Positions 1,335 through 16,388 of a stretch of 64,000 nt of DNA are shown here, piece after piece. The notes below the pieces were generated by a model. The model saw only the letters and a list, made by a program, of their open reading frames with translations. It searched no databases and was not told where the DNA came from. The position numbers and the translations under genes are program-made. How positions within the stretch are numbered: position 1 is the first letter of the stretch; the number at the start of each line of letters is the position of its first letter. The stretch is from Bacteroidales bacterium (lineage in GTDB: Bacteria; Bacteroidota; Bacteroidia; Bacteroidales; VadinHA17). The stretch is taken from positions 787 through 64,786 of the forward strand of contig PLML01000004.1 of the NCBI GenBank assembly GCA_003141525.1, in the 5' to 3' direction.

Positions 1335-1335
1335 A

Positions 1336-1381: not shown

Positions 1382-1385
1382 AAAA

Positions 1386-2814: not shown

Positions 2815-2825
2815 AACATAATATA

Positions 2826-4360: not shown

Positions 4361-4400
4361 ACTTTGAACCTTGAACCTTGAACATTTAACCTTGAACCTG
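4361..4400. repeat. right arm D
   Basis: The sequence actttgaaccttgaaccttgaacatttaaccttgaacctg runs directly into the wzc start codon. Confidence 0.75.
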
Positions 4401-6838
4401 TGACCATGGATCCAAATTATCCCTCCCCCCCTCAGCCAAACCTCCCCGAGGACGACAACCTCGACATAAAAAGATATCTAACTCTGTTCATGAGCAACTG
4501 GTACTGGTTTGCAATCTCATTATTTATTGCACTGACAGTTGCCTATGGCATAAACAGGTACTCCAGTAAACTATATACTATTTCGTCAACACTCATGATA
4601 AGTGATGACCAGTATTCAGGGTCGAGCAGAATTGTAAGCAGCGCAATCCCCGGAGGAGATATTTTCAGGAGCAAGCCAAACATAACAAATGAAATATCAA
4701 TACTGAAATCTTTCAGCCTCAATAAAAGAGTAATAGACTCATTACCCGAATTCAGGGTGGCATATTATGGTGTCGGAAAAAGAAACATCGCTGAGACCCA
4801 GCTTTATAAAAACTGTCCTTTCAGGGTAACATCAGAATCTGTTGATGTTCAGCCTAAAAATGTAAGAGTAAATATCATTATAAGTTCTGCAACAACTTAT
4901 TCACTGGAAATTAATGGGAATAAGAATGTTGAAAAGGACCTTAAATTTGGCCGGCTCTTCAGTAAAGATGGTTTTAAATTCATTATTGAATTGAGAGATC
5001 CGAATAATTTTAAATTTAATCCTAAAGTATCAAATAAATACTATTTTTATTTTACATCTTCTGACGAACTGGCAAACAATTACAGGGCAAATCTGAGTGT
5101 GGCACCGATTGAAAAAGATGCCACTATTGTTAATTTATCTAAAGTAGGTCTGGATCCGCAGCAGGAAGCTGATTACCTGAATAAACTTATGGAAGTATAT
5201 AGAAATCAGGGTTTGGAATCTAAGAATCATATTGCTGACACTACAATTGCTTTTATAGATAAACAACTCGGCTTTGTTGCAGATTCTCTTAAAAAGGCCG
5301 ATAATAAACTTCAGAGATTAAGACTTGACAACAAATTGATTGACCTCGGTAAGGATGGCACTCTTTTACAAACTCGTTTAGAGAAGTTTGCGAATGAAAA
5401 AGTATCCCTTAAGCTTCAATATTATTATTTTCAATATCTGAAAGAATATCTTGACACCAAAAACGAATCGGGTGATATTGTTTCTCCGAATGTTATGGGA
5501 ATTACCGAACCGACGTTAGGAAAACTGGTTCAGGAACTTTCAGAACTCCAGAAAAAGAAGAAAGAGATGTCTATGAACCTTTCAGCGGAGGTGCCGCCGT
5601 TAAATCTATTAACTGAAAACATACACAAAATAAGAATGGCTCTTACCGAGAATATAAAGAGTAGTTTTGCCAGTATAGAACATTTAATTGACGATTCAGA
5701 AAAAAATATAGAAGAGGTGAACCAGGAGATAAATAAACTTCCGGGAACCGAAAGTAAGAGGATAGGTATTCAGAGAGACTTTGATATAAGCAATACTGTT
5801 TATACCTATCTTCTTGAGAAAAGAGCTGAAACCGGTATTGCAAAGGCTTCAAATGTCCCGGACAGCAAAATTGTTGATTATGCAAATATCATTAATACCG
5901 TCCAAATTAAACCAAAGCCAGGAGGGAACAATTTAAAGGCATTACTTTTTGGCATATTAATTCCCGCGGTCATTTTATTCTTATTATATTATTTAAATAA
6001 CAAAATTATCGACAACGGGGACATTATTAAAAAAACAAATGTACCGATAATGGGGTATGTCAGTCACAGCGAATTTAAAAAAGAGATCCCTGTTATTGAT
6101 AACCCGAAATCAGCTCTTTCAGAATCATTCCGTTCAATCAGAACATCTTTACGATATTTTACAAAACAATCCAGCCATTCTGTTATTGCCATTACATCCA
6201 CTATAAGCTCGGAGGGGAAAACTTTTATATCAATTAATCTTGCAGCAATAACGGCACTGCTTGGTAAAAAAGTATTATTAATCGGTCTCGATCTTCGGAG
6301 ACCAAGGATACACAAAATCCTGGGGATTGACAATAGCGAGGGTCTCAGCACCTATTTAATAGGTAATTGTGAATATAAAGAAGTTATAAAGGAAACATCA
6401 TTAAAGAATCTGTATTATGCTACTTCCGGACCAGTACCCCCAAATCCGGCTGAACTGCTAGAGGAGGAAAGGATGGATGCATTTATTGTGAAAGCGAAAA
6501 AGGAGTTTGATTATATATTTATAGATACCCCACCGATTGCGATAGTTTCAGATACTTTATTAATTGCCAGGTTTGTAGATGTTAATCTTTTTATTGTGAG
6601 GCAGAGGTATACCTCAAAAAATACATTGGAATTAATTGAGGAATTATACAAGGATGAAAAACTTAAACACATGGGGATTATTATTAATGATATAAGCCTT
6701 ACAGGTTATTATGGGTATGGGATAAGATACGGCTATTATAAGGGTTATGGATATTCATACGGTAAAAACTACTATGGGCAGTATTCTTACAGCCGGTACG
6801 GATATTCAGATAAAGAACATGGATATTATAATACTTAA
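4400..6838 (+). CDS. wzc: chain-length determinant / tyrosine autokinase (Wzc/GumC family)
   Basis: 812 aa with a Wzz-like periplasmic coiled-coil region and two TM segments. Walker A is SEGKTFISINLA, followed by DLRRP and IDTPP. The C-terminal tail is Tyr-rich (YYGYGIRYGYYKGYGYSYGKNYYGQYSYSRYGY). The start is GTG 4400 or ATG 4406. Confidence 0.9.
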   Translation: MTMDPNYPSPPQPNLPEDDNLDIKRYLTLFMSNWYWFAISLFIALTVAYGINRYSSKLYTISSTLMISDDQYSGSSRIVSSAIPGGDIFRSKPNITNEISILKSFSLNKRVIDSLPEFRVAYYGVGKRNIAETQLYKNCPFRVTSESVDVQPKNVRVNIIISSATTYSLEINGNKNVEKDLKFGRLFSKDGFKFIIELRDPNNFKFNPKVSNKYYFYFTSSDELANNYRANLSVAPIEKDATIVNLSKVGLDPQQEADYLNKLMEVYRNQGLESKNHIADTTIAFIDKQLGFVADSLKKADNKLQRLRLDNKLIDLGKDGTLLQTRLEKFANEKVSLKLQYYYFQYLKEYLDTKNESGDIVSPNVMGITEPTLGKLVQELSELQKKKKEMSMNLSAEVPPLNLLTENIHKIRMALTENIKSSFASIEHLIDDSEKNIEEVNQEINKLPGTESKRIGIQRDFDISNTVYTYLLEKRAETGIAKASNVPDSKIVDYANIINTVQIKPKPGGNNLKALLFGILIPAVILFLLYYLNNKIIDNGDIIKKTNVPIMGYVSHSEFKKEIPVIDNPKSALSESFRSIRTSLRYFTKQSSHSVIAITSTISSEGKTFISINLAAITALLGKKVLLIGLDLRRPRIHKILGIDNSEGLSTYLIGNCEYKEVIKETSLKNLYYATSGPVPPNPAELLEEERMDAFIVKAKKEFDYIFIDTPPIAIVSDTLLIARFVDVNLFIVRQRYTSKNTLELIEELYKDEKLKHMGIIINDISLTGYYGYGIRYGYYKGYGYSYGKNYYGQYSYSRYGYSDKEHGYYNT

Positions 6839-6897: not shown

Positions 6898-7254
6898 ATG
6901 ATTTACATAAGTTTTACTGAAATGCCAGTTTGGCAGAAAGCACATAAGCTTGCAATTGAAGTATTTAATCTAACAATTAATCTTCCAAGGTCTGAAGATT
7001 ACGGATTGACATCCCAGATTCGTAAATCATCAAATGGAGTAGCTGCCTGTATCGCTGAAGGATTTGGAAGAAGTACTAAAAAAGACAAATCAAATTTTTA
7101 TATAATTGCACGGGGTTCCTCATTCGAAACCCAGAACCATTTATTATATAGCAACAAAGTTGGTTATTTTGAAACTCAAATTACTCAACGTCTTTTTGAT
7201 GAGTATAATGAGCTCATTTACGAGTTGAATAAACTTATTAAATCCCTGGAATAA
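6898..7254 (+). CDS. four-helix-bundle protein (23S rRNA IVS protein family), NIAEG-like subtype
   Basis: 118 aa with MPVWQKAHKLAIEVF, SSNGVAACIAEGFGRSTKKDKSNFYIIARGSSFETQ. Confidence 0.85.
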   Translation: MIYISFTEMPVWQKAHKLAIEVFNLTINLPRSEDYGLTSQIRKSSNGVAACIAEGFGRSTKKDKSNFYIIARGSSFETQNHLLYSNKVGYFETQITQRLFDEYNELIYELNKLIKSLE

Positions 7255-7368: not shown

Positions 7369-7439
7369 ATTTTATGGTTATAACAATAAAAAGTCAACAT
7401 TTATCACTATTTTTGTGGTTATAATCTGGTAAATTAAAT

Positions 7440-8660
7440 ATGATGATCAGAAGAGATTTATATTTAAATCAGCTTTTCGGCTATATTGATAAGCCTTTTA
7501 TCAAGGTCATTACCGGCATCAGACGAAGTGGTAAGTCCGCCATTCTGATGTTACTTCGTGATGAATTGTTGAGAAAAGGGATTAATGGGATAAATGTTAT
7601 CTATATAAATTTTGAAAGTTTTGAATTTTCAGAAATAGATGACGCCGAAAAGCTTTACAAATTTGTCAAAACTAAAATTAAAACCAGGAAACGTTATTAT
7701 ATTCTACTCGACGAGATCCAGGAAGTAGGATCATGGGAAAAAGCTGTTAACTCTTTTTTAGTTGATTTCAACGCTGATATTTACATTACAGGATCCAACT
7801 CCCGGCTTTTGTCTTCGGAATTGGCCACTTATCTGGCTGGACGCTATGTTGAAATTCACCTTCATACACTGTCCTTTTCTGAATATCTTCTTTTCAAACA
7901 AATACGTCTTAATGAAGAGACTTCCGATCTGTATCGTGAATTTGGATTTTTTTTACGTCTTGGGGGATTTCCGGCTCTTAATACCGGGGAATACACTTAT
8001 GAATCTGCCTATAAGGTAGTATACGATATTTATTCATCCGCTATTCTTCGCGATACAGTACAACGATATAATATCAGGGATGTTGAACTTCTGGAACGTG
8101 TTGTCAGGTACGTGTTTGACAATATAGGTAATAAATTCTCGGCAAAAAATGTAGCAGACTATTTTAAAAGCCAGCAGCGCAAGATAGATCTTAACACTGT
8201 ATATAATTACCTCACTGCTCTTGAGGGAGCATTTATTGTGTACCGGATACCACGTTATGATGTTAAGGGTAAAGAGATACTTAAGACATTTGAAAAATTT
8301 TATACAGCTGATCAATCGTTACTGTATGCCGTTATGGGGTATAAGGAGAGGCATATTTCAGGTGTTCTTGAAAATATTGTAATGCTTGAGCTAAAACGAA
8401 GAGGGTACAATGTATTTGTTGGAAAATCGGATGACAAAGAGATTGACTTTATTGCTGAATTGAAAGGGAATAAAATTTACATTCAGGTCGCTTACAAAAT
8501 GTCGGAGCAAACTACAATTGACCGTGAGTTTGCTCCATTACATGAAATAAAAGACAACTATCCTAAATACGTGATAACAATGGATGAGACATGGCAGGAT
8601 AATATTGAAGGCGTTCAGCACATGCACATTGCTGATTTTTTACTTATGAAGGAATATTAG
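7440..8660 (+). CDS. AAA-family ATPase with DUF4143-type C-terminal domain
   Basis: 406 aa. Walker A is GIRRSGKS and Walker B-like is YILLDEIQ. The overall layout is typical of AAA_14+DUF4143 proteins. Confidence 0.7.
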   Translation: MMIRRDLYLNQLFGYIDKPFIKVITGIRRSGKSAILMLLRDELLRKGINGINVIYINFESFEFSEIDDAEKLYKFVKTKIKTRKRYYILLDEIQEVGSWEKAVNSFLVDFNADIYITGSNSRLLSSELATYLAGRYVEIHLHTLSFSEYLLFKQIRLNEETSDLYREFGFFLRLGGFPALNTGEYTYESAYKVVYDIYSSAILRDTVQRYNIRDVELLERVVRYVFDNIGNKFSAKNVADYFKSQQRKIDLNTVYNYLTALEGAFIVYRIPRYDVKGKEILKTFEKFYTADQSLLYAVMGYKERHISGVLENIVMLELKRRGYNVFVGKSDDKEIDFIAELKGNKIYIQVAYKMSEQTTIDREFAPLHEIKDNYPKYVITMDETWQDNIEGVQHMHIADFLLMKEY

Positions 8661-8688
8661 TTGCGGGTTCTGCATTCCGCATCAAAAT

Positions 8689-8874
8689 ATGAAGTGTTCG
8701 GAACTATTAAGATTACTTTTAAAAGACGGGTGGGTGGTTGTGTCAACAAAAGGGTCACATTTGAAGATGAAACACCCTGAAAAGCAAGGGATCATAATTT
8801 TCCCTGATCATGGAGCACGGGAAATGGGTAAGGGAATGGAGAAGAAAATCCGTAAAGATGCCGGTTTGAACTAG
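8689..8874 (+). CDS. hicA: HicA-family toxin
   Basis: 61 aa. LLKDGWVVVSTKGSHLKMKHPEKQGIIIFPDHG is the HicA core, including the GSH motif. Confidence 0.8.
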   Translation: MKCSELLRLLLKDGWVVVSTKGSHLKMKHPEKQGIIIFPDHGAREMGKGMEKKIRKDAGLN

Positions 8875-8886
8875 AGATAGTCAGGT

Positions 8887-9294
8887 ATGGTAACAAAAAA
8901 GAAAATAGTGGTTATAATTGAAAAGACAGATACCGGATTTTCTGCTTATTCAGAAGACTATCCGGTATTTACAACAGGAGCAACAGTGAATGAGTTGCTT
9001 GAAAATACCAATGAAGGTTTCACCCTTTACTTTGGGGATAAAAATCATGGTACGCAACAGATTTACTATGAAATAGATTTTAAGCAGTTCTTTCAATACT
9101 ATAAGGTGATAAACTCCAAAGCACTTGCTGAGAAGATCGGCATGAATCCTACTCTTTTATCTCAATATGTGAGAGGTCATAAAAGACCATCCGAGAAACA
9201 AAGCCGAAGGATTCTGTATGGTATTAACAAGATCGGACAGGAACTGGCTGAAATGAGTGTTATTTATGAAAAACAAGATAAAAGACAAAAGTAA
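8887..9294 (+). CDS. hicB: HicB-family antitoxin with C-terminal HTH
   Basis: It has a UPF0150-like N-terminus (VVIIEKTDTGFSAYSEDYPVFTTGATVNELLEN) and an XRE-like HTH (LAEKIGMNPTLLSQYVRG). It lies directly downstream of hicA. Confidence 0.75.
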   Translation: MVTKKKIVVIIEKTDTGFSAYSEDYPVFTTGATVNELLENTNEGFTLYFGDKNHGTQQIYYEIDFKQFFQYYKVINSKALAEKIGMNPTLLSQYVRGHKRPSEKQSRRILYGINKIGQELAEMSVIYEKQDKRQK

Positions 9295-9354
9295 AAAGAT
9301 AAAAGTAGGGCCGAGCGTTAAGAATTTGCCCGGTGGGCAAATTTAGCGACGGAG
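9271..9354. repeat. composite left arm (family A units plus unique segment G containing palindrome AATTTGCC-N5-GGCAAATT)
   Basis: gataaaagtagggccgagcgttaagaatttgcccggtgggcaaatttagcgacggag matches the reverse complement of 12477-12543 with only a few mismatches. Confidence 0.8.
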
Positions 9355-9367
9355 CCAGTTTGTAGCG

Positions 9368-9508
9368 ATGGAAAAGAAAAATGACCTTTGCGAAAGGCTT
9401 TTTGAATTTGCAGTAAGAGTCATTGAATTTTTGAAAACATTATCCTATTCACCTGAAAATAAAACTATTCGGACACAACTGTCAAAAAGCGCTGATTGGA
9501 TTAGTTGA
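9368..9508 (+). pseudogene. 5' fragment of a four-helix-bundle gene (GANY subtype)
   Basis: MEKKNDLCERLFEFAVRVIEFLKTLSYSPENKTIRTQLSKSA is nearly identical to the 13474 copy. It then diverges and stops (DWIS*). Confidence 0.75.
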
Positions 9509-9589
9509 AAGCGGGGTTGTGGAGAAAGTTGAAGGAAATTATTTCATATCTGATCCATTCTTTAAGAGGTTTCTTTTCCGTTACGCCTG
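9492..9589 (+). pseudogene. possible C-terminal remnant of a DUF234-type ATPase
   Basis: LIGLVESGVVEKVEGNYFISDPFFKRFLFRYA* resembles the wHTH tail (Y.I.DPF..FWF) of DUF234 ATPases. It has no N-terminal part. Confidence 0.3.
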
Positions 9590-9643
9590 ATGGCGTTACG
9601 CTTGTGGGCGTAAAAAACAACGCAATGTTAAAAAAACTTAAAA

Positions 9644-9853
9644 ATGACAAATAAAGAACAAATACAACGAGATATAGCAATTGCTTTTGATTTCGTTGAA
9701 CAAATAATAGATAACCCGGATATACTTGATAAGATACCTGATGGTACTACGATTACTTTTCTTGACTGTGAAAATGTAAAGCCGGAGAAACCTATTAGTC
9801 AAGATACTGCAAAAAAATACGTCAACGTTAAAAGGCACTTTGAAGTATTATAA
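9644..9853 (+). CDS. small hypothetical protein (69 aa)
   Basis: An ORF with a clean ATG. I do not recognise a domain with confidence. Confidence 0.35.
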   Translation: MTNKEQIQRDIAIAFDFVEQIIDNPDILDKIPDGTTITFLDCENVKPEKPISQDTAKKYVNVKRHFEVL

Positions 9854-9865
9854 AATCTATGGCAT

Positions 9866-9903
9866 AAGATTAAGGCTAAGGTTAAGGTTAAGGTTGAGAG
9901 GTT
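9866..9903. repeat. E-type left arm (second copy)
   Basis: The sequence aagattaaggctaaggttaaggttaaggttgagaggtt has its inverted partner at 11661-11697. Confidence 0.7.
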
Positions 9904-10053
9904 ACTCTACCTAAGTCATGAAAATATTTTATCTGCTAGACGCCTGACGCCAGACGCCGGACACCCCGAAGAGTTCATATGGTCGTTAAAAGATATTAAT
10001 CTTCAGGTACAAATTATTTCTTTTAGTACATTTGTTAACTAATAATTAAAAAG

Positions 10054-10221
10054 ATGGTAACAACAATAAAAAAAGGAACATCACGCGAAAAAATCCGGTT
10101 AGCCTTAAAAAAACGACAAGTAAAAATCAAAAGTCCTGATTTAAAAAAATATTGCGGTTCTATCACCCTCCTTGAGGACCCAATGAAACTACAAAAAGAA
10201 TGGCGCAATGAATGGGACTAA
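10054..10221 (+). CDS. putative antitoxin of the VapC module (55 aa, below track threshold)
   Basis: My own translation is MVTTIKKGTSREKIRLALKK...LEDPMKLQKEWRNEWD*. It overlaps the PIN gene start by 14 nt. A TACATTTG -7-like box lies at 10027-10034. Confidence 0.5.
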   Translation: MVTTIKKGTSREKIRLALKKRQVKIKSPDLKKYCGSITLLEDPMKLQKEWRNEWD

Positions 10222-10579
10222 TATCCTTCTTGATACCAATATTGTGCTTTATCTCCTTAACGGAGAAGAGACACTGATTCCTCTTTTAGATGAGAAAAAT
10301 CTTTTTCTATCATTTATAACCCAATTGGAGTTATTGGGTAACCGGCATTTAAAACCCAGCGACATCCTGAAAATTAAACAATTTATTTCTGAGTGTACAG
10401 TGATTGATATTACACCTGCTATAAAGGAATTAGTTATAAATATTCGTCAAAAATACAACATCAAGCTTCCTGACTGTATTATTATAGCAACTTCCCTTTG
10501 GCTAAATATGCCTTTAATTACAGCTGATCACGATTTTAAAAAGATTGACATAGCCGACCTGATATATTTTCAAATATAA
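10208..10579 (+). CDS. vapC: PIN-domain toxin (VapC-like)
   Basis: ILLDTNIVLYLL at the N-terminus gives the first acidic residue. It also has ITQLELL, LPDCIIIATSL and ITADHDF, the acidic quartet pattern of PIN domains. Confidence 0.8.
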   Translation: MNGTNILLDTNIVLYLLNGEETLIPLLDEKNLFLSFITQLELLGNRHLKPSDILKIKQFISECTVIDITPAIKELVINIRQKYNIKLPDCIIIATSLWLNMPLITADHDFKKIDIADLIYFQI

Positions 10580-10626
10580 CCAGGACAAAAAAGATAACTA
10601 AAAGGGCTTATTTTAGAATTCAGGCA

Positions 10627-10725
10627 CTTGAACTTTGAACCTTAAACTTTGAACTTTGAACTTTTATCTTTTTACTTTTGTCTTTTGTCTTATTCCATAC
10701 TTTTGCCTTTTTACTTTTGTCTTGA
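10627..10725. repeat. stacked orphan right arms (D-type then A-type)
   Basis: cttgaactttgaaccttaaactttgaactttgaac is followed by ttttatctttttacttttgtcttttgtcttattccatacttttgcctttttacttttgtcttga. No matching left arm lies nearby. Confidence 0.65.
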
Positions 10726-10851
10726 TAAACCCTCAACAAATGACCAATGTTGTCCAGATAACGCACCTCTCTAAGATTTACTGATTGGTGAAAATAACGA
10801 AAACAATAAAAGGGAGGGCATAATATTACCTGAAATCTTTGCGCAGTTTTA

Positions 10852-10883
10852 TTTGGCGAACAATCCCTTATACGTTAAATTTG
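10852..10883 (+). promoter_or_regulatory. candidate Bacteroidota-type promoter for the second PIN module
   Basis: TTTG at 10852-10855 and TAAATTTG at 10876-10883 with a 20-nt spacer. It lies inside the 5' extension of track ORF 10853, which argues for the Met at 10904 as the true start. Confidence 0.4.
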
Positions 10884-10903
10884 TATATAAAACTTATAAA
10901 ACG

Positions 10904-11140
10904 ATGAACACTACTTCATATAAAAGAACGTACAGTTTCCCTTTCACATTCGATGATGTATTAAAGCTGATTAAATCATTCTCAATAGAGGATAAAGTGA
11001 GATTGGAAAAGGAATTGGAAAAAGAGACACTCGTTTACCGGGCACAAAAATTGTCAGAAAAAATTAAGTCAAATGATCTCACTATTGAGGATGTAGTAGC
11101 TGAAGTTGTGGAATACAGAAAGAAACAGAATGCAAAATGA
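10904..11140 (+). CDS. putative antitoxin partner of PIN protein
   Basis: 78 aa from MNTTSYKR. It has a charged coiled C-terminus and overlaps the downstream PIN gene. Confidence 0.45.
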   Translation: MNTTSYKRTYSFPFTFDDVLKLIKSFSIEDKVRLEKELEKETLVYRAQKLSEKIKSNDLTIEDVVAEVVEYRKKQNAK

Positions 11141-11537
11141 AGTTTTCATTCTGGATAGTAACATCTGGATAAACTATGTGATCACAAAGCGACTGGACAA
11201 ATTAGTTACACGGATTTACCACCATCAATTGACGGTTCTGACAAGTCACCACCTTATTACAGAAATACAGGAGGTATTGACTCGATCAAAGTTTAAGAAA
11301 TATCTTAAACTTTCTGACATTAAAGAATTAATTGCAATACATTTAAAACTATGCCGGCTTGTGGATACTGATGAAACTACAGACCAACTTACGGACCCCA
11401 AAGATAATTTCTTGCTAAATTTATATAACACAGGAAAAGCCACCGTAATTGTGAGCGGTGATAAAGAATTTCTCCATGAGGCAAGCGAATTAAATTACCG
11501 TGTTATGACGCTTAAAGAGTTTGAGTTATCCCATTAG
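11130..11537 (+). CDS. PIN-family toxin (TIGR00305-like)
   Basis: VFILDSNIWINYV, LITEIQEVL and DPKDNFLLNLYNTGKATVIVSGDKEFL are the typical D..D..GD pattern of this PIN subfamily. The start is taken at MQNE, which overlaps the upstream stop. Confidence 0.75.
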   Translation: MQNEVFILDSNIWINYVITKRLDKLVTRIYHHQLTVLTSHHLITEIQEVLTRSKFKKYLKLSDIKELIAIHLKLCRLVDTDETTDQLTDPKDNFLLNLYNTGKATVIVSGDKEFLHEASELNYRVMTLKEFELSH

Positions 11538-11580
11538 CAGTGACCCCGAATGCTGAAAAACAGAAGCTCCCTCCTTAGAA

Positions 11581-11697
11581 TTCAAAACGAGAACCGACCC
11601 GCTTTTCACTTTCTCCTTGTTATCTTTACTTTTGTCTTGTGACTTTTGTCTTTTATCTTTATTTCAACCTCAACCTCAACCTAAACCTGAACCTCAA
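11581..11697. repeat. stacked arms: unique segment J, A-type right arm, E-type right arm
   Basis: tcaaaacgagaaccgacccgcttttcactttctc is the partner of 12225-12305. acttttgtcttgtgacttttgtcttttatctt is the A family. caacctcaacctcaacctaaacctgaacctcaag is the partner of 9866-9903. Confidence 0.65.
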
Positions 11698-11772
11698 GAA
11701 TAAGACAGGACAATTAAAGAAGTTGCCTAATAAATAAAAGTTCGTACTTTTACAAAAGAATATTTTACCATT

Positions 11773-11988
11773 ATGAAGAAAATCAAATACGTAATTTATA
11801 AAGAAGGAAAGTATTATGTTTCACAATGTTTAAATGTGGACATATCCAGTTTTGGTACCACCATTGATGAGGCAAGTGCCAACTTGAAAGAAGCTTTACA
11901 ATTATATTTTGAAGATGATAAAAGTCATTGGGATTATTTACCAATTTCAGAAGCTTTAATTGGGGAAACTCAGCTTAATTTGAGATGA
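11773..11988 (+). CDS. short HicB-like antitoxin
   Basis: 71 aa. YVIYKEGKYYVSQCLNVDISSFGTTIDEASANLKEALQLYFED matches the UPF0150/HicB N-domain pattern. Confidence 0.6.
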   Translation: MKKIKYVIYKEGKYYVSQCLNVDISSFGTTIDEASANLKEALQLYFEDDKSHWDYLPISEALIGETQLNLR

Positions 11989-12123
11989 CAAAACTGTAAT
12001 TGTTCCTTGCCCTGTGAAATAGCACAAAGCCCCCGCCCTGGCCATATTTCACAGGGCCGGCACCCCGGAAGGAAATCCCTATTGGTACTTTTCGTTCAAT
12101 AATAAGACAATCAGGATTAAACC
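11985..12123 (+). pseudogene. decayed HicA-like toxin gene
   Basis: It starts MTKL and then hits a stop. After the 49-bp insert is mentally removed, the same frame reads FVPSAPRKEIPIGTFRSIIRQSGL, a HicA C-terminal motif. The central dsRBD-like part is missing and the 3' end appears frameshifted. Confidence 0.45.
12010..12058. mobile_element. 49-bp miniature derivative of the 3838-4127 element
   Basis: GCCCTGTGAAATAGCA...ATATTTCACAGGGC has termini identical to the 290-bp element, with only about 20 nt between them. Confidence 0.7.
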
Positions 12124-12379
12124 AAAATGATTTTGTTTGAGAAAAAGATGGTTAGTTTATACAGGAATCTACATTTTATACCTCGAAAAACACGAAACGC
12201 CCAGGGAATTAGAAAAATGATAAAAAGTGAAAGAGAAAAAAAGTTTCTCGATTTTCATTTGACTTCGTCGAGCTCGTCCCGCTAAAGCGGGACTCGGTTC
12301 ACGTTTAAGAAAGCTCTTAGCCCTGTGCCACTAAACGATAATCTCAAAACACTTAATACGAAACGTGTTAAATTTTTTA

Positions 12380-12543
12380 ACTTTTGTCTTTTTCCTTTCT
12401 CCTTTTGCCTTTTGCCTTGATTCTACTTTTATCTTGTGACTTTTGTCTTTTGTCTTGATCCACCCCTGCATGCTGTCCCCTTCGCTAAATTTGCCTACCA
12501 GGCAAATTTTTAACGCTCGGTCCTGTCTTTTATCTTTATAGAG
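12380..12543. repeat. composite right arms (long A-type, then G', then short A')
   Basis: cttttgtctttttcctttctccttttgccttttgccttgattctacttttatcttgtgacttttgtcttttgtcttga is followed by ccttcgctaaatttgcctaccaggcaaatttttaacgctcggtcctgtcttttatcttt. It ends one nt before the wzm ATG. Confidence 0.8.
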
Positions 12544-13410
12544 ATGAATTCCAATTCTGAAAAATCACATACAATAATATATGAGCCCAACCAGCGATTG
12601 AAAATAGGTTGGGTAAAAACCTGGATAATACTTGTTCGAAACATTGTTCATAGCTGGGATTTGATTTATCAGCTATTTCGAAGAGATTTTTTAATGAGCT
12701 ATAAGAAATCATTTATTGGTGCGGGCTGGATTTTTATTTCTCCATTATTAGGGGTTGTCTCATGGGTATTTTATAATTCTACTGGTATCCTTAAGCCAGG
12801 TGATGTAGGAATCCCCTATCCTGCCTATGTTTTGTTAAGTACCTCAATTTATGGCTTGTTTGGTGGATTTTTTACCTCAGCCAGCGGGACCTTAACTGCC
12901 GGTTCTGGTTTTATAACCCAGGTAAATTATCCCCACGATGCCTTACTGATAAAGCAGGCTATGCTTCAGCTTGCGAATTTTGCAATTGTGTTTTTCATTA
13001 ATATTATCGTTTTGTTTTCCTTTAGGGTAGTTCCTAGTTTATATATATTCTTATTGCCATTATTGATTCTTCCCATCTTTTTCATTGGCTCGGCAATAGG
13101 TTTGTTTGCCTCTGTCATTGAAGTAGTTGCCTCTGATATAAACAAAGTAATTACTTTTATGATTGGCTTATTATTGTTTATTACACCAGTCATATATTCA
13201 TCAAAAGTGCAGAACCCCTTTCTGCAGAAAATGATCAAATGGAATCCATTAACCTATCTTATTGGAGGTGCAAGAGATATGATCATATACGGAAAGATGG
13301 AACACCTTGACACATATTTTATTTGCGCCGGAGTATCATTCCTGCTTTTTCTATTTTCCTGGCGCATTTTTTACATTACCGAACAACGGGTAATTGAAAA
13401 GATGATTTAA
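12544..13410 (+). CDS. wzm: ABC-2 type polysaccharide exporter permease (Wzm)
   Basis: 288 aa with six predicted TM stretches. The N-terminal LIYQLFRRDFLMSYKKSFIGAGW is typical of ABC-2/Wzm permeases. Confidence 0.85.
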   Translation: MNSNSEKSHTIIYEPNQRLKIGWVKTWIILVRNIVHSWDLIYQLFRRDFLMSYKKSFIGAGWIFISPLLGVVSWVFYNSTGILKPGDVGIPYPAYVLLSTSIYGLFGGFFTSASGTLTAGSGFITQVNYPHDALLIKQAMLQLANFAIVFFINIIVLFSFRVVPSLYIFLLPLLILPIFFIGSAIGLFASVIEVVASDINKVITFMIGLLLFITPVIYSSKVQNPFLQKMIKWNPLTYLIGGARDMIIYGKMEHLDTYFICAGVSFLLFLFSWRIFYITEQRVIEKMI

Positions 13411-13441
13411 ATGCTAAACAATAAACGCGAAAGGTAAGATC

Positions 13442-13478
13442 TAAAGATAAAAGACAAAAGTCACAAGATAAAAGTGGA
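13442..13478. repeat. left arm A (third copy)
   Basis: taaagataaaagacaaaagtcacaagataaaagtgg is the exact reverse-complement style of the 32-bp ACTTTTGTCTTGTGACTTTTGTCTTTT motif. Confidence 0.8.
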
Positions 13479-13951
13479 AGAAAAGAAAAATGATTTGTGC
13501 GAGAGACTCTTTGAGTTTGCAGTAAGAGTAATTGAATTTTTAAAAACACTACCTTATTCCCCAGAAAATAAAACTATTCGTACGCAATTATCAAAAAGTG
13601 CTTGTTCGTCAGGAGCTAATTACTCGCCCTGTCAAATTGCATCAAATTGTTAAAAGATTTTTATTTTATATATGTTTTAAGGAGTTTAACTGATTTCAAA
13701 TTCTATGTTGGTTTTACATCAGATTTGATGCAAAGATTTGACAGGGTGAAGAGTCTCAAAGCGGTTCATCCAAGGCAGACTTTTCTAACAAAGTCAGGAT
13801 TTCCCTTCGTGAAATGAGAGAATCAAATTATTGGCTCAGAATAATTATAAGAACTGTTAAAGAAGTTAATGGGCCAGAACTCGACTACCTTATAAAAGAA
13901 TCAGGAGAACTCAAAAACATCCTTGGCTCTATAGTCCAAAAAACCAGATAA
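13474..13951 (+). pseudogene. four-helix-bundle gene (GANY subtype) interrupted by a 124-bp miniature element
   Basis: The 5' half reads (V/M)EEKKNDLCERLFEFAVRVIEFLKTLPYSPENKTIRTQLSKSACSSGANY (to 13623). The 3' half reads EESQSGSSKADFSNKVRISLREMRESNYWLRII... (13748-13951). Removing 124 nt restores the frame. Confidence 0.85.
13624..13747. mobile_element. 124-bp non-autonomous (MITE-like) derivative of the 2206-2493 element
   Basis: The termini are CCCTGTCAAAT (13627-13637) and ATTTGACAGGG (13736-13746). The interior equals the first ~115 nt of the full element, including the 5' part of the GIY-YIG ORF, with 6 mismatches by my count. Confidence 0.8.
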
Positions 13952-13956
13952 TCAAC

Positions 13957-13999
13957 CTCTTTTTACTTTTGTCTTGTGACTTTTGTCTTTTGTCTTTGA
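13957..13999. repeat. right arm A
   Basis: The sequence ctctttttacttttgtcttgtgacttttgtcttttgtctttga. Confidence 0.8.
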
Positions 14000-14052
14000 T
14001 CATTAAACCCTCAACGCCTCAACAAATAAACACATCAACCATTACCCACTAC

Positions 14053-15282
14053 ATGAGCGACACAGTAATAAAAGTCGAAGGCCTTCACAAAAAATTCTGC
14101 CAATCCCTTAAACGGAGCATGTTTTATGGCACTATTGATGCTACAAAAAGCATATTTGGGTTGCCTATTGAAAATGTTGATCTGCGGAAAAAGGAATTTT
14201 GGGCATTACAGGATATTAACTTTGAATTAAAGCGTGGTGAAACTCTTGGTTTGATAGGTCAGAATGGTAGTGGCAAAACAACATTATTGCGTTTATTAAA
14301 CGGACTTTTTCCACCCGATAAAGGGAAAATTACAATTAGGGGACGTATTGGTGCATTAATTGCAGTTGGTGCAGGCTTTCATCCTCACATGACAGGTCGT
14401 GAAAATATTTTTCTGAATGGAACAATTCTTGGCATGACTAAACCCGAATTAAAACGAAAATTTGATGAAATAGTTGATTTTGCCGAAATTGGGGATTTTA
14501 TTGATTCACCTGTTGCAACATACTCCAGCGGTATGACAGTCAGGTTAGGTTTTGCTATTGCAATACATTGTGACCCAGACATTTTGCTTTTAGATGAAAT
14601 CTTAGCAGTTGGAGATGGCAGGTTTCAACAAAAATGTTTTTCGAAAATTGCGAAATTCCTCAAAAATGGTACTTCTGTAGTTTTTGTATCTCATTCAATG
14701 CCAATTGTTCAAATGATTTGTAAAGATGCTGCTTTTATGGATAAGGGCAAAATACTTGCTTATGGTAAGGTTGAAGATGTAGTTGGCTTTTACTATAATA
14801 AATGTGCTGTAAATGTCTTTGAAACGAATGAAATTGGGAAAAATAATTTTATTAGCACATACAATATTTCATACCAGTATTTGAAATTTTATAATGAAAA
14901 GGGTGAAGAGACCCGAACATTTCAATCGGGTGATGATATTATTGCAGAATGGAGATATGAAATGCAAAATGAAATTAAAAATGTTTCTGTTTATTTTGGA
15001 ATGGCAAATGATGGGTTTACTCATAGCGGTTATAGTACTGCGAAAACCTATGATAATTATAAAGTAGAAAAAATTAATTCTGACACTATTTGTCGTATCC
15101 GAATTAAAAAGCCATACCTGTCACCGGGTGACTATATCGTAAGCATTGGTCTCTGGGATGAAAATTTGCAGGATTGTTATTATAATGACTATGAAAGTAC
15201 AGGTAAAATAAAGATTTTTAGCTCAAATAAAATCCACACTCGTTTTCAATTTGATCACGAATGGAACGTAATTAACAAATAG
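14053..15282 (+). CDS. wzt: polysaccharide ABC exporter ATPase (Wzt/TagH type) with C-terminal extension
   Basis: Walker A is GQNGSGKTT, the signature is YSSGM, and Walker B is ILLLDE. About 170 extra C-terminal residues follow. The track start at 13969 translates the repeat arm, so I use the Met at 14053. Confidence 0.85.
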   Translation: MSDTVIKVEGLHKKFCQSLKRSMFYGTIDATKSIFGLPIENVDLRKKEFWALQDINFELKRGETLGLIGQNGSGKTTLLRLLNGLFPPDKGKITIRGRIGALIAVGAGFHPHMTGRENIFLNGTILGMTKPELKRKFDEIVDFAEIGDFIDSPVATYSSGMTVRLGFAIAIHCDPDILLLDEILAVGDGRFQQKCFSKIAKFLKNGTSVVFVSHSMPIVQMICKDAAFMDKGKILAYGKVEDVVGFYYNKCAVNVFETNEIGKNNFISTYNISYQYLKFYNEKGEETRTFQSGDDIIAEWRYEMQNEIKNVSVYFGMANDGFTHSGYSTAKTYDNYKVEKINSDTICRIRIKKPYLSPGDYIVSIGLWDENLQDCYYNDYESTGKIKIFSSNKIHTRFQFDHEWNVINK

Positions 15283-15284
15283 GT

Positions 15285-16388
15285 ATGAGCATCTCTTTTT
15301 TTTACACCCATATAAATCTGGTAGCTTTTAACAAAGTAAAAGATGTTTTAGATTCAACTTTCCTTAGCGAAGGCGATGTTGTAAAAGATTTTGAAGGTGA
15401 ATTGTATAATAAACTCGGGCTAATAAATCCTGTAGCTTTAAATAGCGGTACATCTGCACTTCATTTAGCTCTGATTCTTGCAGGGGTAAAAGAAGGTGAT
15501 GAAGTAATTTTACCTGCTCAAACGTTTATTGCCACAGGTCTTGTAATACTAATGCAAAAAGCGAAACCTGTTTTTGCTGATATTCAGTTTAATACCGGAA
15601 ATATTGATCCAAACTCGATTAAAGAGAAAATAACTTCAAAAACTAAAGCTATAATTGCTGTTCATTGGGGTGGCTATCCCTGCGATATGGATGAGATTAA
15701 TAAAATAGCCGGGGAAAACAATCTAAAAGTAATTGAAGATGCTGCTCATGCTATAGGTGCAGTTTATAAAAATAAACCTATTGGAAGTATATCCGATTTT
15801 ACTTGTTTTTCTTTCCAGGCTATAAAGCATTTAACAACAGCTGATGGTGGCGCTATCTGTTGTAAAAATGAAGAAGACTATCTACGGGCAAAGCGGTTAC
15901 GATGGTTCGGAATTGACAGGTTAAATAGCAAACCTTCAATTTTGGGAGAGCGCGAATACGATGTATCTGAAATCGGATATAAATATCACATGAATAATTT
16001 TTCTGCTGCCTTAGGTATTGCAAATTTGGCAGATATTAACAAGATTTTAGAGAGGAGACTTCAAATTTCTGATATTTATAGAAAAGAACTAAAATATATA
16101 AAAGGAATACAATTATTAAATTATCAAAATGACAGAAAATCAGCCTGGTGGTTATTTACGCTTCTGGTTGATAACAGGATAAATTTTATTACAAAATTGA
16201 AAGAAAAGAATATACCGGCATCTGTTGTTCATTTGAGAATTGATTCAAATACTGTTTTTGGAGGCATCAGAAAAGAATTATTAAATCAAAATAAATTTAA
16301 TGATTTACAAGTGTCTCTTCCTGTTCATTCTGGTCTGAAAGAAGAAGATATAAATTATGTAATTGAAACTATTAAACATGGTTGGTAA
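15285..16388 (+). CDS. DegT/DnrJ/EryC1/StrS-family sugar aminotransferase (perosamine-synthase-like context)
   Basis: DEVILPAQTFIAT, VIEDAAHAIG and FSFQAIKHLTTADGG give the PLP lysine context. It lies next to gmd. Confidence 0.8.
   Translation: MSISFFYTHINLVAFNKVKDVLDSTFLSEGDVVKDFEGELYNKLGLINPVALNSGTSALHLALILAGVKEGDEVILPAQTFIATGLVILMQKAKPVFADIQFNTGNIDPNSIKEKITSKTKAIIAVHWGGYPCDMDEINKIAGENNLKVIEDAAHAIGAVYKNKPIGSISDFTCFSFQAIKHLTTADGGAICCKNEEDYLRAKRLRWFGIDRLNSKPSILGEREYDVSEIGYKYHMNNFSAALGIANLADINKILERRLQISDIYRKELKYIKGIQLLNYQNDRKSAWWLFTLLVDNRINFITKLKEKNIPASVVHLRIDSNTVFGGIRKELLNQNKFNDLQVSLPVHSGLKEEDINYVIETIKHGW

What the first reader, a model, noticed from the sequence alone, without database searches (positions are those of the whole stretch)
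9271..12543. About 70-bp inverted repeat bounding a 3.3-kb patchwork of toxin-antitoxin modules and gene wreckage
The bounding repeat:
- The left end is gataaaagtagggccgagcgttaagaatttgcccggtgggcaaatttagcgacggag (9285-9354).
- The reverse complement of 12477-12543 (gataaaagacaggaccgagcgttaaaaatttgcctggtaggcaaatttagcgaagggg) matches it with only a handful of mismatches.
- Both copies include the internal palindrome AATTTGCC-N5-GGCAAATT.

Contents of the interval:
- A truncated four-helix gene.
- A possible DUF234 tail.
- A small ORF.
- Two PIN-toxin modules.
- A HicB gene with a decayed HicA.
- Further internally paired arms (E-type 9866/11661; J 11581/12225) and unpaired orphan right arms (10627-10725, 12380-12459).

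Interpretation: the right end stops one nucleotide before the wzm ATG. It looks like one original cassette, a paralog of the one at 13442-13999, that became a landing pad for later insertions.
Basis: seen in the sequence. Interest (0 to 1): 0.7.

Follow-up and report, generated by a model that had tools for sequence, protein, structure and literature searches.

The report
Dispersed hairpin repeat, not cassette ends
The 70-bp inverted repeat is real, but its arms are two separately placed copies of a small hairpin element scattered through many uncultured Bacteroidales genomes, sitting at the ends of a decayed gene cassette that has collected toxin-antitoxin genes just upstream of a polysaccharide-export gene.

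Summary
The inverted repeat exists. Arms 9307-9372 and 12459-12524 are 66 nt long and 82% complementary, about 80 nt with the adjoining AAAGATAAAAG.

The arms are not private ends of a 3.3-kb unit. They belong to a ~65-nt hairpin element that I call G. G occurs at over 110 sites in 43 species-level Bacteroidales MAGs and has no Rfam match. Each window copy has a closer relative in another genome (100% and 95%) than in the window (81.5%).

G lies with fixed polarity on the purine-rich strand of the tandem-heptamer "arms" that flank small cassettes. A copy in a left arm and a copy in a right arm are therefore inverted automatically.

A near relative (L120) has the same hicAB, then the left arm, an intact four-helix gene, and a right arm with G'. 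It lacks the left G and the patchwork. So "one decayed cassette that accreted TA modules" is largely right, but the left G is a later 63-nt insertion.

Other relatives lack 7370-12543 entirely, so G is not a wzm regulator. No inverted or excised variant was seen.

The G stem shows compensatory changes and its flanks are conserved. It resembles REP elements. Its function is unproven.

The parts
9275..9306 (+). A-type left arm. It is a 32-nt unit, AAGAYAAAAGACAAAAGTMAMAAGAYAAAAGT, built from tandem heptamers. It also supplies the last codons of hicB (8887-9294).
   Evidence: (D6, I3-I6). The window holds 10 copies of this unit, 3 in left orientation and 7 in right orientation. Homology of hicAB with L112 stops at 9273/9274.
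9307..9369 (+). G element, left copy. It is a 63-nt insertion relative to the empty orthologous site in L120. It splits the GT|G start codon of the four-helix gene, and its last two bases (AT) plus the following G recreate an ATG at 9368.
   Evidence: Covariance-model hit at 9305-9374, 87.4 bits. Alignment with L120, window 13425, L112, L106 and L090. 100% identical to L106 and 98.5% to L082.
9368..9496 (+). Truncated four-helix-bundle (23S rRNA IVS protein family) gene, about codons 1-43.
   Evidence: Hit to an HMM built from the window's paralogues at 9371-9496, E 1e-10, profile positions 5-45 of 118. 85% nucleotide identity to 13480-13602 (D3). No 3' part of the gene lies anywhere in 9497-13476.
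9579..9962 (+). Small ORF of 69 aa (9644-9853), lying between the GGCGTTA-type (9579-9611) and AGACGCC-type (9938-9962) heptamer arrays. The E-type left arm (TAAGGT)n at 9865-9895 lies inside this stretch.
   Evidence: Pfam gives only a weak DUF5647 hit, E 0.003.
10054..10579 (+). VapB-like small ORF (10054-10221) followed by a PIN-domain toxin gene (10208-10579).
   Evidence: PF01850 PIN, E 7.6e-17. The 55-aa upstream ORF has no Pfam hit.
10628..10723 (+). Right-arm arrays: TTGAACT type (10628-10664) followed by A type (10660-10723). The arm at 10660-10694 is the best complement of the left arm 9272-9306.
   Evidence: I4: 35 nt, 94%.
10853..11537 (+). 95-aa ORF followed by a PIN_3 toxin gene, a second TA-like module.
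   Evidence: PF13470 PIN_3, E 1.5e-15.
11628..11697 (+). A-type right arm (11628-11661) followed by the E-type right arm (TCAACC)n at 11664-11697.
   Evidence: I3, I5; (E arms 83% identical as an inverted repeat).
11773..12125 (+). HicB-like ORF (11773-11988) and a decayed hicA. The hicA remnant is interrupted by a 50-bp ORF-less hairpin (12008-12058) that carries the terminal repeats of the GIY-YIG element, CCCTGTGAAATA...TATTTCACAGGG.
   Evidence: Pfam HicB_lk and UPF0150 are weak, E 0.08-0.1. CCCTGTGAAATA occurs 4 times in the window: at the two ends of the GIY-YIG insert at 3840/4124 and at 12010/12056. The hicA reading comes from my own translation of the sequence.
12380..12457 (+). A-type right-arm arrays.
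   Evidence: I2, I6: 35 nt, 91% complementary to 9274-9308.
12459..12524 (-). G element, right copy (G'). It is embedded in the A-type right arm and so inverted relative to the left copy.
   Evidence: Covariance-model hit at 12457-12526 (-), 82.3 bits. 95.4% identical to L053 (between mutS2 and an asparaginase gene in MAG fen_957) and 81.5% to the left copy. 91% identical over 93 nt to the second G' of L120.
12524..12539 (+). Short remainder of the A-type right arm on the outer side of G'. It ends 4 nt before the wzm ATG at 12544.
   Evidence: (D7).
13442..13999 (+). Paralogous A-type cassette: left arm, four-helix gene interrupted by a GIY-YIG remnant, right arm. It has no G, and its site is empty (AAAAGT^GGAAGAAAAG).
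   Evidence: I7: 33 nt, 94%.

Best explanation
The repeat consists of two separately placed copies of G.

What G is:
- G is a ~65-nt, strand-asymmetric hairpin element dispersed through the chromosomes of a lineage of uncultured Bacteroidales.
- It has a 9-bp stem whose sequence drifts with compensatory changes, extended by a 5-bp helix that includes a conserved U.G pair.
- The stem is framed by conserved flanks: GGGCCGAGCGUUAA on the 5' side and UUUAGCGA(A)GGAGCCAG..UGCAGGGG on the 3' side.

Why the two copies are inverted:
- G sits with one fixed polarity on the purine-rich strand of tandem-heptamer arrays.
- In these genomes such arrays come as inverted pairs, an A-rich left arm and a T-rich right arm. 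They close a long stem around small selfish genes: four-helix S23p-type genes, DUF559 nucleases and TA modules.
- A G in a left arm and a G in a right arm are therefore necessarily inverted.

What is shown:
- Here a four-helix cassette next to hicAB lost its 3' 60%.
- The interval filled with arm-delimited TA modules and fragments, in a slot of the polysaccharide operon that differs between close relatives.
- The left arm acquired a 63-nt G.

What is inferred:
- Cassettes are exchanged by recombination or slippage between the repeated arms.
- The arms act like the terminal stem of a 23S rRNA intervening sequence in the operon transcript.
- G behaves like a REP-type non-autonomous element. Its hairpin plus flanks would be recognised on one strand, as ssDNA or RNA, by an unidentified trans-acting protein.
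- The 80-bp complementarity between the two copies has no function of its own.
For: Dispersal:
- The strict hairpin pattern hits 98 stretches in one-genome-per-species GTDB contigs. 97 of them are in 43 Bacteroidales/Bacteroidia assemblies, with up to 10 copies per genome.
- The covariance model confirms 112 full or near-full matches.
- There are no matches in IMG/VR, PLSDB or INPHARED and none in Rfam.

The two copies are not sisters:
- They are 81.5% identical to each other, against 100% and 95.4% to copies in other MAGs.

Polarity:
- In G orientation, the 40-nt flanks are at least 70% purine in 27 (left flank) and 29 (right flank) of 101 copies.
- They are pyrimidine-rich in 0 and 2 copies. 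The background rate is 3% for each.

Insertion:
- The orthologous site in L120 is empty. The paralogues at 13442 and in L112 are also empty. L090 carries G at a different position within the arm.

Structure:
- 96.2% of cells are paired. 7 pairs show changes on both sides, in 28 cells. 0 of 500 shuffles reach this.
- Examples of compensated stems: AAATGATCC/GGATCATTT and AATTAGTCC/GGACTAATT.
- The opposite strand scores only about 19 bits against the model.

G is not cassette-specific:
- 98 of 105 copies have no four-helix gene in their 8-kb locus.
- G also sits on the left side only, in sense orientation, of DUF559 cassettes.

The slot is variable:
- L114 and L116 lack 7370-12543 altogether.
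- L109 and L112 have hicAB downstream of wzm, flanked by E-type arms.
- L120 has a different array.

The arms close the stem:
- In the predicted folds of intact cassettes the arms pair with each other (z -6.25 and -3.47).
- This parallels the Coxiella S23p intervening sequence: a terminal stem cut by RNase III, with heptamers upstream of the ORF (PMC4990558).
Against: - L120 shows that the two ends can belong to one cassette, so the copies are not in unrelated places.
- No target-site duplication, no transposase and no recurrent neighbouring gene was found, so mobility rests on presence/absence patterns only.
- The family was ascertained with a strict pattern that fixes most of the stem. Only about 10 unconstrained copies carry the covariation.
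- Copy number per genome is low for a REP-like family.
- Gene context is only mildly biased: 35 sense against 19 antisense between co-directional genes (with crude ORF calls). This does not separate an RNA role from a DNA role.
- RNase III processing of the arms is by analogy only.
Confidence: 0.75

Rival explanations
1. One reading: the G segments are the terminal inverted repeats of one 3.3-kb composite element, which moves, or once moved, as a unit.
For: The IR is long (66-80 nt) and far beyond chance. The two ends can form a duplex of about 85 bp (-111 kcal/mol). L120 shows both end types around a single cassette.
Against: - The left G is absent from the orthologous site in L120.
- Intact cassettes have G on one side only.
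- Each copy has closer relatives in other genomes.
- The interval contains no transposase or recombinase gene.
- The same hicAB module and right-arm/G' unit occur in other arrangements.
Confidence: 0.06
2. G is mainly a functional RNA motif: a cis-acting hairpin in cassette or operon transcripts, for example a 5' stabiliser or a processing or protein-binding site. On this view it spreads passively with the arms rather than as a mobile DNA element, and the inverted pair is incidental.
For: - The structure is strand-specific, with conserved U.G pairs (99 of 107 at one position).
- The sense strand folds better than the antisense strand (-20.9 against -17.3 kcal/mol).
- G lies 5' of the ORF and in sense orientation in 4 of 4 four-helix cassettes and in the DUF559 cassettes.
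- There is a sense bias of 35 to 19 between co-directional genes.
Against: - A quarter of the informative copies, including the window's right copy and both L120 copies, are antisense to all neighbouring genes.
- Tandem arrays with a 74-nt period exist (L047).
- G inserts at different positions in otherwise orthologous arms.
- There is no conserved promoter and no Rfam relative.
Confidence: 0.2
3. The inverted repeats mark an invertible DNA switch upstream of wzm, like the invertible promoter regions of Bacteroides capsule loci.
For: The IR lies immediately upstream of a polysaccharide ABC-transporter gene in a Bacteroidales capsule-type locus. The antisense strand of G' carries TAAATTTG, 51 nt upstream of the wzm ATG; that this resembles the Bacteroidetes -7 promoter box is from memory.
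Against: - Four contigs from four samples span the whole interval in one orientation. Seven more cover one junction, and none shows a flipped junction.
- The arms are 82% identical, and the longest identical run is 14 nt.
- No recombinase gene was found among the ORFs scanned in 1-15 kb or the genes called in 2.6-23 kb.
- Inverting between symmetric arms would not change what abuts wzm.
- The context of 76 copies does not fit a promoter role: only 30 of 76 have a divergent gene on the promoter side.
Confidence: 0.03
4. G is a conserved regulatory leader of wzm.
For: G' ends about 20 nt before the wzm start codon.
Against: Relatives whose wzm is 87-89% identical at the protein level (L114, L116) have a different 30-nt leader and no G. 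G copies lie next to unrelated genes in 43 genomes.
Confidence: 0.01

Closest known systems
REP / BIME / REPIN elements of Proteobacteria (mobilised by RAYT transposases)
   Same: Both are short, imperfectly palindromic, extragenic, multi-copy elements found in both orientations. Both are combined in mosaics with other short motifs. In both, the hairpin is kept by compensatory change while flanking bases stay conserved, and some copies form tandem clusters.
   Different: - G has no conserved GTAG or CGTC tag.
- Copy number is far lower: 1-10 strict-pattern copies per genome.
- Most copies are singletons, not inverted doublets.
- G has long, conserved, asymmetric flanks.
- G is targeted to purine-rich heptamer arrays.
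- No RAYT gene was seen in any 8-kb locus.
- The host lineage is Bacteroidales.
23S rRNA intervening sequences that encode an S23p / four-helix-bundle protein (Leptospira, Coxiella; PMC4990558)
   Same: Both have a PF05635 ORF enclosed by terminal inverted repeats that form a long closing stem, with tandem heptamers just upstream of the ORF. The protein family is the same.
   Different: - These cassettes sit between protein-coding genes of a polysaccharide operon, not in rRNA helix 45 or 25.
- Arm sequences differ from cassette to cassette.
- The arms also delimit TA modules and DUF559 genes and can be empty.
- RNase III excision has not been tested here.
Integron cassette arrays with attC sites
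   Same: Both are co-oriented arrays of small, mostly promoterless cassettes rich in TA modules. Content is strain-specific. Boundaries are imperfect palindromes whose structure is better conserved than their sequence.
   Different: - No IntI-type integrase was found.
- There are no R''/R' core sites.
- Boundaries are tandem 6-7-mers placed on both sides of a cassette.
- G is not present at every boundary.
Intergenic tandem heptamer repeats of Beggiatoaceae, Cyanobacteria and some Bacteroidetes (TAACTGA repeats, PMC4679880; cyanobacterial STRR and small dispersed repeats, from memory)
   Same: Both are arrays of heptamers directly upstream of start codons in intergenic regions, with array length varying between strains. 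From memory, small elements nested inside such arrays are also known from cyanobacteria.
   Different: Here the arrays occur as complementary left and right pairs around cassettes. The heptamer sequence differs for each cassette type. A conserved 65-nt hairpin rides inside the arrays.
Invertible promoter regions of Bacteroides capsular polysaccharide loci
   Same: Both are inverted repeats upstream of polysaccharide genes in Bacteroidales.
   Different: The spacer here is 3.2 kb and full of genes. The arms are 82% identical. No recombinase is nearby, and no flipped variant was found.

Membership tests
REP/REPIN-RAYT system | Short imperfect palindrome, extragenic, in many copies per genome | tested here: inconclusive
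   G is palindromic and mostly extragenic: 8 of 105 copies lie inside crude ORFs. However, only 1-10 strict-pattern copies per genome were found. A whole-genome census was not possible.
REP/REPIN-RAYT system | Conserved GTAG or CGTC tetranucleotide at the foot of the hairpin | tested here: not met
   The alignment of 84 copies shows GGGCCGAGCG on the 5' side and AGCGA(A)GGAGCC on the 3' side. No conserved GTAG or CGTC is present.
REP/REPIN-RAYT system | Cognate RAYT (Y1 transposase) gene flanked by the repeats | tested here: inconclusive
   Among 264 ORFs within 1.2 kb of G copies, the only recurrent neighbour is DUF559. Whole genomes could not be searched.
REP/REPIN-RAYT system | The mobile unit is an inverted doublet (REPIN) with a short spacer | tested here: not met
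   Almost all copies are singletons. The multi-copy loci are direct tandems (L047, L074, L078). The only inverted pairs are kilobases apart (the window and L027).
MITE | Terminal inverted repeats and a target-site duplication | tested here: not met
   The filled and empty sites (window against L120) show a clean 63-nt insertion between T and GG with no duplication. The ends AGGGCC and GCGAT are not inverted repeats of each other.
S23p-type intervening sequence (IVS) | ORF of the 23S_rRNA_IVP / four-helix-bundle family | tested here: met
   PF05635 hits: 972-1334 (E 5e-24), 6898-7254 (E 3e-31), 59626-59985 and 60788-61141. The fragment at 9371-9496 is detected by an HMM built from the paralogues.
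S23p-type intervening sequence (IVS) | Terminal inverted repeats that form the closing stem | tested here: met
   The arms pair in the minimum-free-energy folds: a 34-bp stem in L112 (z -6.25) and a stem in the window's 895-1385 cassette (z -3.47). IR pairs are listed.
S23p-type intervening sequence (IVS) | Located inside the 23S rRNA gene | tested here: not met
   No rRNA is found in the window (Rfam). The cassettes lie between wza, wzc, wzm and wzt.
S23p-type intervening sequence (IVS) | Excised from the transcript by RNase III | not testable with these tools
   This needs RNA end mapping.
Integron | IntI tyrosine recombinase with attI next to the array | tested here: inconclusive
   No integrase domain was found among the ORFs scanned in 1-15 kb or the called genes in 2.6-23 kb. 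The rest of the window and the rest of the genome were not scanned.
Integron | attC sites with R''/L''/L'/R' organisation and a GTTRRRY core | tested here: not met
   The boundaries are tandem 6-7-mers. G has GTTAAGA or GTTAAAA at the corresponding place, which does not fit GTTRRRY, and it has no RYYYAAC partner.
Bacteroides-type invertible region | Both orientations present in the population | tested here: not met
   Every contig that spans the interval or one of its junctions is colinear with the window. This is a weak test, because short-read assemblies hide minority forms.
Any Rfam family | Match to a curated covariance model | tested here: not met
   No match at the gathering score in the 64-kb window. 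No match overlapping G at E up to 10 in 9200-12650.

The most novel reading that the evidence does not exclude
The heptamer-arm hairpins together with G form a cassette-exchange system, a Bacteroidales counterpart of integron arrays that runs on a different and still unknown enzyme. On this reading the arms are structure-recognised recombination sites. They let TA modules, four-helix genes and small nucleases hop between operon junctions. G is the cis-acting single-strand hairpin that the enzyme binds.
Probability: 0.12. Interest if true: 0.85.

Novelty: new variant of a known kind. Interest (0 to 1): 0.55.

Why it matters
The result turns a local curiosity into a family-level observation, with three parts.

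1. A conserved hairpin element. It has covariation support and fits no Rfam model. It is spread over at least 43 species of environmental Bacteroidales, and its placement rule (fixed polarity inside A-rich heptamer arrays) is clear enough to test.
2. Cassettes outside rRNA. Genes of the S23p "intervening sequence" type, DUF559 nucleases and TA modules share one architecture of complementary heptamer arms here. They occupy fast-turning slots between the genes of a capsule operon.
3. Empty and filled alleles. The matched alleles found here (window against L120, L112, L114 and L090) give concrete material for asking how such cassettes and hairpins move, and whether they cut or insulate operon transcripts.

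If the arms prove to be processing or recombination sites, that would bear on an old question: what S23p intervening sequences are.

Tried and rejected
1. G as a promoter. The antisense strand of every copy carries TAAATTTG, and G' points it at wzm. But only 30 of 76 copies have a gene on that side in the right orientation, and no -33 element lies at the proper spacing. I dropped this.
2. Covariation in the outer helix P1. The variants GGGCC/GGAGCC, GGGCT/AGAGCC and GGACC/GGGGCC correlate, but not in one consistent register, and they may only mark subfamilies. I make no claim from them.
3. Window 12219-12330 as the original 3' flank of hicB, which would make 9275-12218 a single insertion. This rests on one 17-nt exact match to L112 (score 34 against a shuffle mean of 21.8 and maximum of 34). 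That match contains the GCCCTGT end motif of the GIY-YIG element. It is too weak to use.
4. A recurrent neighbouring gene that could mobilise G. Clustering 264 nearby ORFs gave only DUF559 and housekeeping genes.
5. A replication-strand rule. The ten copies on chromosome OY764960.1 alternate strands over short distances.
6. A phage or plasmid vector. No hits in IMG/VR, INPHARED or PLSDB.
7. The DUF234 tail. Pfam gives nothing for the 27-aa fragment.
8. The sigma-70 promoter and terminator scan was not used, because its consensus does not apply to Bacteroidetes.

Full report
SETTING

The window is one long plus-strand polysaccharide locus: wza 2793-3608, wzc 4400-6838, wzm 12544-13410, wzt 13969-15282, then sugar-modifying enzymes. 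It comes from an uncultured Bacteroidales population in peat and fen metagenomes.

The first 14 kb, and 59.5-61.2 kb, are unusual. Small genes of the 23S-rRNA-IVS / four-helix-bundle family (PF05635) sit between the operon genes. Each is bracketed by complementary arrays of tandem 6-7-mers. The left array is purine-rich and the right array is pyrimidine-rich on the coding strand:
- AGCGCAG/CTGCGCC around 972-1334
- AAGTAAA/TTTACTT around 2062-2695
- AAAGTTC/AACCTTG around 3680-4360
- TTAAGG/CTCAAC around 6898-7254
- a 32-nt "A-type" unit, AAGAYAAAAGACAAAAGTMAMAAGAYAAAAGT, around 13474-13951

The A-type unit occurs ten times in the window, three as left arms and seven as right arms. Its core ACTTTTGTCTT occurs 29 times against 3.2 expected. 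In predicted folds of intact cassettes the arms form the closing stem: 34 bp in L112:583-1040 (z -6.25), and window 895-1385 (z -3.47).

THE OBSERVATION

The inverted repeat is real. Arms 9307-9372 and 12459-12524 are 66 nt long and 82% complementary. Including AAAGATAAAAG on the outer side gives about 80 nt. The internal palindrome occurs twice in 64 kb against 0.06 expected.

Most of the listed contents check out:
- The four-helix fragment is confirmed.
- The PIN and PIN_3 genes are confirmed.
- The E arms are confirmed.
- The orphan A-type right arms are confirmed.
- HicB and the J arms are weak.
- The DUF234 tail is unconfirmed.

WHAT THE ARMS ARE

A scan of one genome per GTDB species with AATTTGCC-N5-GGCAAATTTAGCG returned 98 stretches. 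All but one, a chance match in Desulfamplus, are in 43 Bacteroidales/Bacteroidia MAGs, with up to ten copies in one genome. The parts of the element not specified by the pattern are also conserved. The consensus is AG.GGGCCGAGCGTTAA.AATTTGCCCGGTGGGCAAATTTAGCGA.GGAGCCAG.CTGCAGGG..GG. I call this element G.

A covariance model built from 84 copies finds 112 full or near-full matches in the fetched loci. In the window it finds exactly two, one on each strand. The opposite strand of each copy scores only about 19 bits, so the element is clearly oriented.

Copies that escape the search pattern show that the stem is under structural selection, not sequence selection. Examples are AAATAGCCC/GGGCTATTT, AATTAGTCC/GGACTAATT, AAAATGTCC/GGACATTTT and AAATGATCC/GGATCATTT, all with the flanks unchanged. 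Over 107 distinct copies, 96.2% of cells pair. Seven pairs show changes on both sides, in 28 cells. No shuffle of 500 reaches this.

One U.G pair is conserved in 99 of 107 copies. It would be a C-A mismatch on the other strand.

Rfam has no match, even at E up to 10. IMG/VR, PLSDB and INPHARED hold no copy.

THE PLACEMENT RULE, AND WHY THE TWO COPIES ARE INVERTED

Read in G orientation, the 40-nt flanks are at least 70% purine in 27 (left flank) and 29 (right flank) of 101 copies. They are pyrimidine-rich in 0 and 2 copies. The background is 3% each way. Many copies sit visibly inside arrays such as GGCGAAA, GACGAAA or AAGGAAA.

The left and right arms of a cassette are reverse complements of each other. 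A G in a left arm and a G in a right arm therefore must be inverted relative to each other. That is the situation in the window:
- The left copy lies between the A-type left arm and the start of the four-helix gene.
- The right copy lies within an A-type right arm: ...CTTTTGTCTTGAT[G']GTCTTTTATCTTTAT.

THE TWO COPIES ARE NOT SISTERS

The two copies are 81.5% identical to each other. The left copy is 100% identical to L106 and 98.5% to L082, both from MAG fen_976. The right copy is 95.4% identical to L053 from MAG fen_957, where it sits between mutS2 and an asparaginase gene with no cassette nearby. Among 83 copies, the other window copy ranks 52nd and 25th.

G is not cassette-specific. 98 of 105 copies have no four-helix gene within their 8-kb locus. 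In OY764960.1, G lies in intergenic mosaics of several heptamer types.

Where G does adjoin a small selfish gene, it lies 5' of it and in sense orientation. This holds in four of four four-helix cases. It also holds in a second cassette type with nested inverted repeats around a DUF559 gene (PF04480, E 7e-33), where G is again on the left side only.

RELATIVES THAT DECIDE THE INTERPRETATION

L120 carries an identical HicA and is about 88% identical in DNA. It reads: hicA, hicB, A-type left arm, intact 118-aa four-helix gene, A-type right arrays, G' (minus strand), a further TA module, a second G', then more TA genes.

Aligned to the window, the L120 left arm runs straight into the gene: AAAAGT^GGAAGAAAAG. 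The window has 63 extra bases there (9307-9369), and those bases are G. The paralogue at 13442 and the L112 cassette are also empty at this site. L090 carries G a few bases further upstream in the arm.

The insertion splits the GTG start codon. The last two bases of G plus the next G recreate an ATG at 9368.

So the window's ends do correspond to the ends of one L120-like cassette or array. The four-helix gene was truncated at about codon 43, and about 2.9 kb of other arm-delimited material lies between the ends. It does not support the idea that the G repeat bounds the unit.

The left arm's best complement is the right arm at 10660-10694 (94%), not the last one (91%). The interior therefore looks like a series of modules, each followed by an A-type right arm, just as in L120.

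THE SLOT IS HYPERVARIABLE

- In L114 and L116 (wzm 87-89% identical at the protein level), wzm follows the TTAAGG-arm cassette after 30 nt. All of window 7370-12543 is missing and there is no G. This rules out G as a wzm leader.
- In L109 and L112 (wzm 94% identical), the same hicAB module lies downstream of wzm between E-type arms. It sits next to an intact G-less A-type cassette and several empty arm hairpins.
- At the PaaX-wza junction, L090 has one simple A-type cassette with G. The window instead has A-type arms (838-876 and 2743-2806) enclosing two other four-helix cassettes and a MazEF-like module.

NO SIGN OF INVERSION OR EXCISION

Four contigs from four samples span the whole interval, colinear with the window at 99.8-100% identity. 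Seven more cover one junction. None shows an alternative junction. This is a weak test for short-read assemblies.

The two ends could pair over about 85 bp (-111 kcal/mol, against -36 kcal/mol for the separate folds). The longest identical run is only 14 nt. From general knowledge, that is below what RecA-type recombination needs.

MECHANISM

Shown:
- G is a dispersed, oriented element with a structurally constrained hairpin.
- It shows presence/absence polymorphism at an orthologous site.
- It follows a strict polarity rule within heptamer arrays.
- The arms close cassettes.
- Cassette content turns over between close relatives, with breakpoints at arms. For example, hicAB homology with L112 ends at 9273/9274, exactly where the arm starts.

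Inferred:
- The arms act as in S23p intervening sequences of 23S rRNA. In Coxiella, a terminal stem is cut by RNase III and heptamers precede the ORF (PMC4990558).
- The arms also serve as substrates for recombination or slippage that shuffles cassettes.
- G is a REP-like non-autonomous element recognised on one strand by an unknown protein.

Whether that strand is RNA or single-stranded DNA is open. The U.G pairs, the position 5' of ORFs, and a 35:19 sense bias favour RNA. The antisense copies, the tandem arrays and the insertion polymorphism favour DNA.

COMPARISON WITH KNOWN SYSTEMS

G works most like REP/BIME elements. It fails their defining tests: no GTAG or CGTC tag, no doublets, and no RAYT seen. 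It should not be filed as one.

The cassettes match S23p intervening sequences in ORF family and closing stem, but they are not in rRNA.

The arrays resemble integron cassette arrays in content and in having structured boundaries. They lack an integrase and attC cores.

Intergenic heptamer arrays upstream of start codons are known in Beggiatoaceae, Cyanobacteria and a few Bacteroidetes (PMC4679880). In my literature searches I found no description of paired arms around cassettes or of a hairpin element riding in them.

VERDICT

- The inverted repeat itself is a by-product of two independently placed copies of an undescribed REP-like hairpin family. It is not a functional boundary.
- I rate this a new variant of known kinds, of moderate interest.

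Noticed in passing
window 2214-2497, 3838-4128, 13620-13750: Small GIY-YIG genes (PF01541, E about 1e-16) with 13-15-bp terminal inverted repeats (TCACCCTGTCAAAT or TTGCCCTGTGAAATA) interrupt four-helix genes at the same conserved motif (GANY^ / DNIA^). The copy at 13620-13750 is a remnant. L112, L120 and L090 carry uninterrupted alleles. This looks like a homing-type element specific to this gene family.
   Followed up: partly
window 12008-12058; L090 around 4678-4747: A 50-bp ORF-less miniature of the GIY-YIG element (CCCTGTGAAATA...TATTTCACAGGG) sits inside the decayed hicA. A similar miniature replaces the CCTGCAGGG tail of a G copy in L090. The G tail palindrome CCTGCAGG equals the outermost bases of those terminal repeats joined together.
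   Followed up: partly
window 9367-9370 (also L106, L082): The G insertion falls between the GT and the G of the four-helix gene's GTG start codon. The last two bases of G (AT) plus the next G make a new ATG, so a start codon survives the insertion.
   Followed up: yes
L059 5760-6700, L012, L064, L079, L013, L077: A second cassette type occurs in other Bacteroidales. A DUF559 nuclease gene is enclosed by nested inverted repeats (ATAGCCGTCAAC; CCCCTCCTTTTGAAGGGGG; GGGGTGGTTGATT), with G on the left side only. Several copies have lost the gene but kept the repeats.
   Followed up: partly
window 838-876 and 2743-2806: A-type arms enclose two other four-helix cassettes and a MazEF-like module between the PaaX-like gene and wza. 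The syntenic site in L090 holds a single A-type cassette with G. This is a second example of nesting in the same locus.
   Followed up: partly
window 7370-12543 versus L114, L116, L109, L112, L120: The junctions around wzm carry different cassettes in relatives that share 84-94% identity in the flanking genes. In some the slot is empty. In others the same hicAB module is on the other side of wzm. In one there is a different TA array (MNT, DUF6922-AbiEii).
   Followed up: yes
window 60629-61167: The four-helix gene at 60788-61141 is flanked by direct, not inverted, AATCAC[T/C] arrays. The complementary GGTGATT/GTAACTG array lies at 60629-60660 and forms an empty hairpin upstream. So not every cassette follows the simple left-arm/right-arm rule.
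   Followed up: no
window 6835-6876/7279-7369, 3609-3668/4360-4399, 9865-9895/11664-11697: In the E-type and AAAGTTC-type arm pairs, the regular mismatch is A opposite C on the plus (mRNA) strand. On the minus strand the same positions would be G.U (G.T) pairs. The A-type pair at 13442/13965 shows the reverse, with U.G on the plus strand.
   Followed up: no
window 12486-12493: The antisense strand of every G carries TAAATTTG, which from memory resembles the Bacteroidetes -7 promoter box. In G' it points at wzm, 51 nt upstream of the ATG. The contexts of other copies do not support a promoter role.
   Followed up: partly
L047 6265-6630 and 7620-7763; L078 2340-2430: Direct tandem arrays of G with a 74-nt period occur here. 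They include units whose stems have diverged with compensation (AAATAGCCC/GGGCTATTT).
   Followed up: no
window 4360-4403; window 15256-15336: Contigs of the same population differ by about two heptamers in the right arm of the third cassette (L001, L002). One contig (L003) lacks 81 bp at the wzt/aminotransferase junction.
   Followed up: no
L115 1-1750: The sequence upstream of a wzm relative is GC-rich and unlike the rest, joined at a CTCAACC-type arm. It is possibly a chimeric assembly at the repeat.
   Followed up: no
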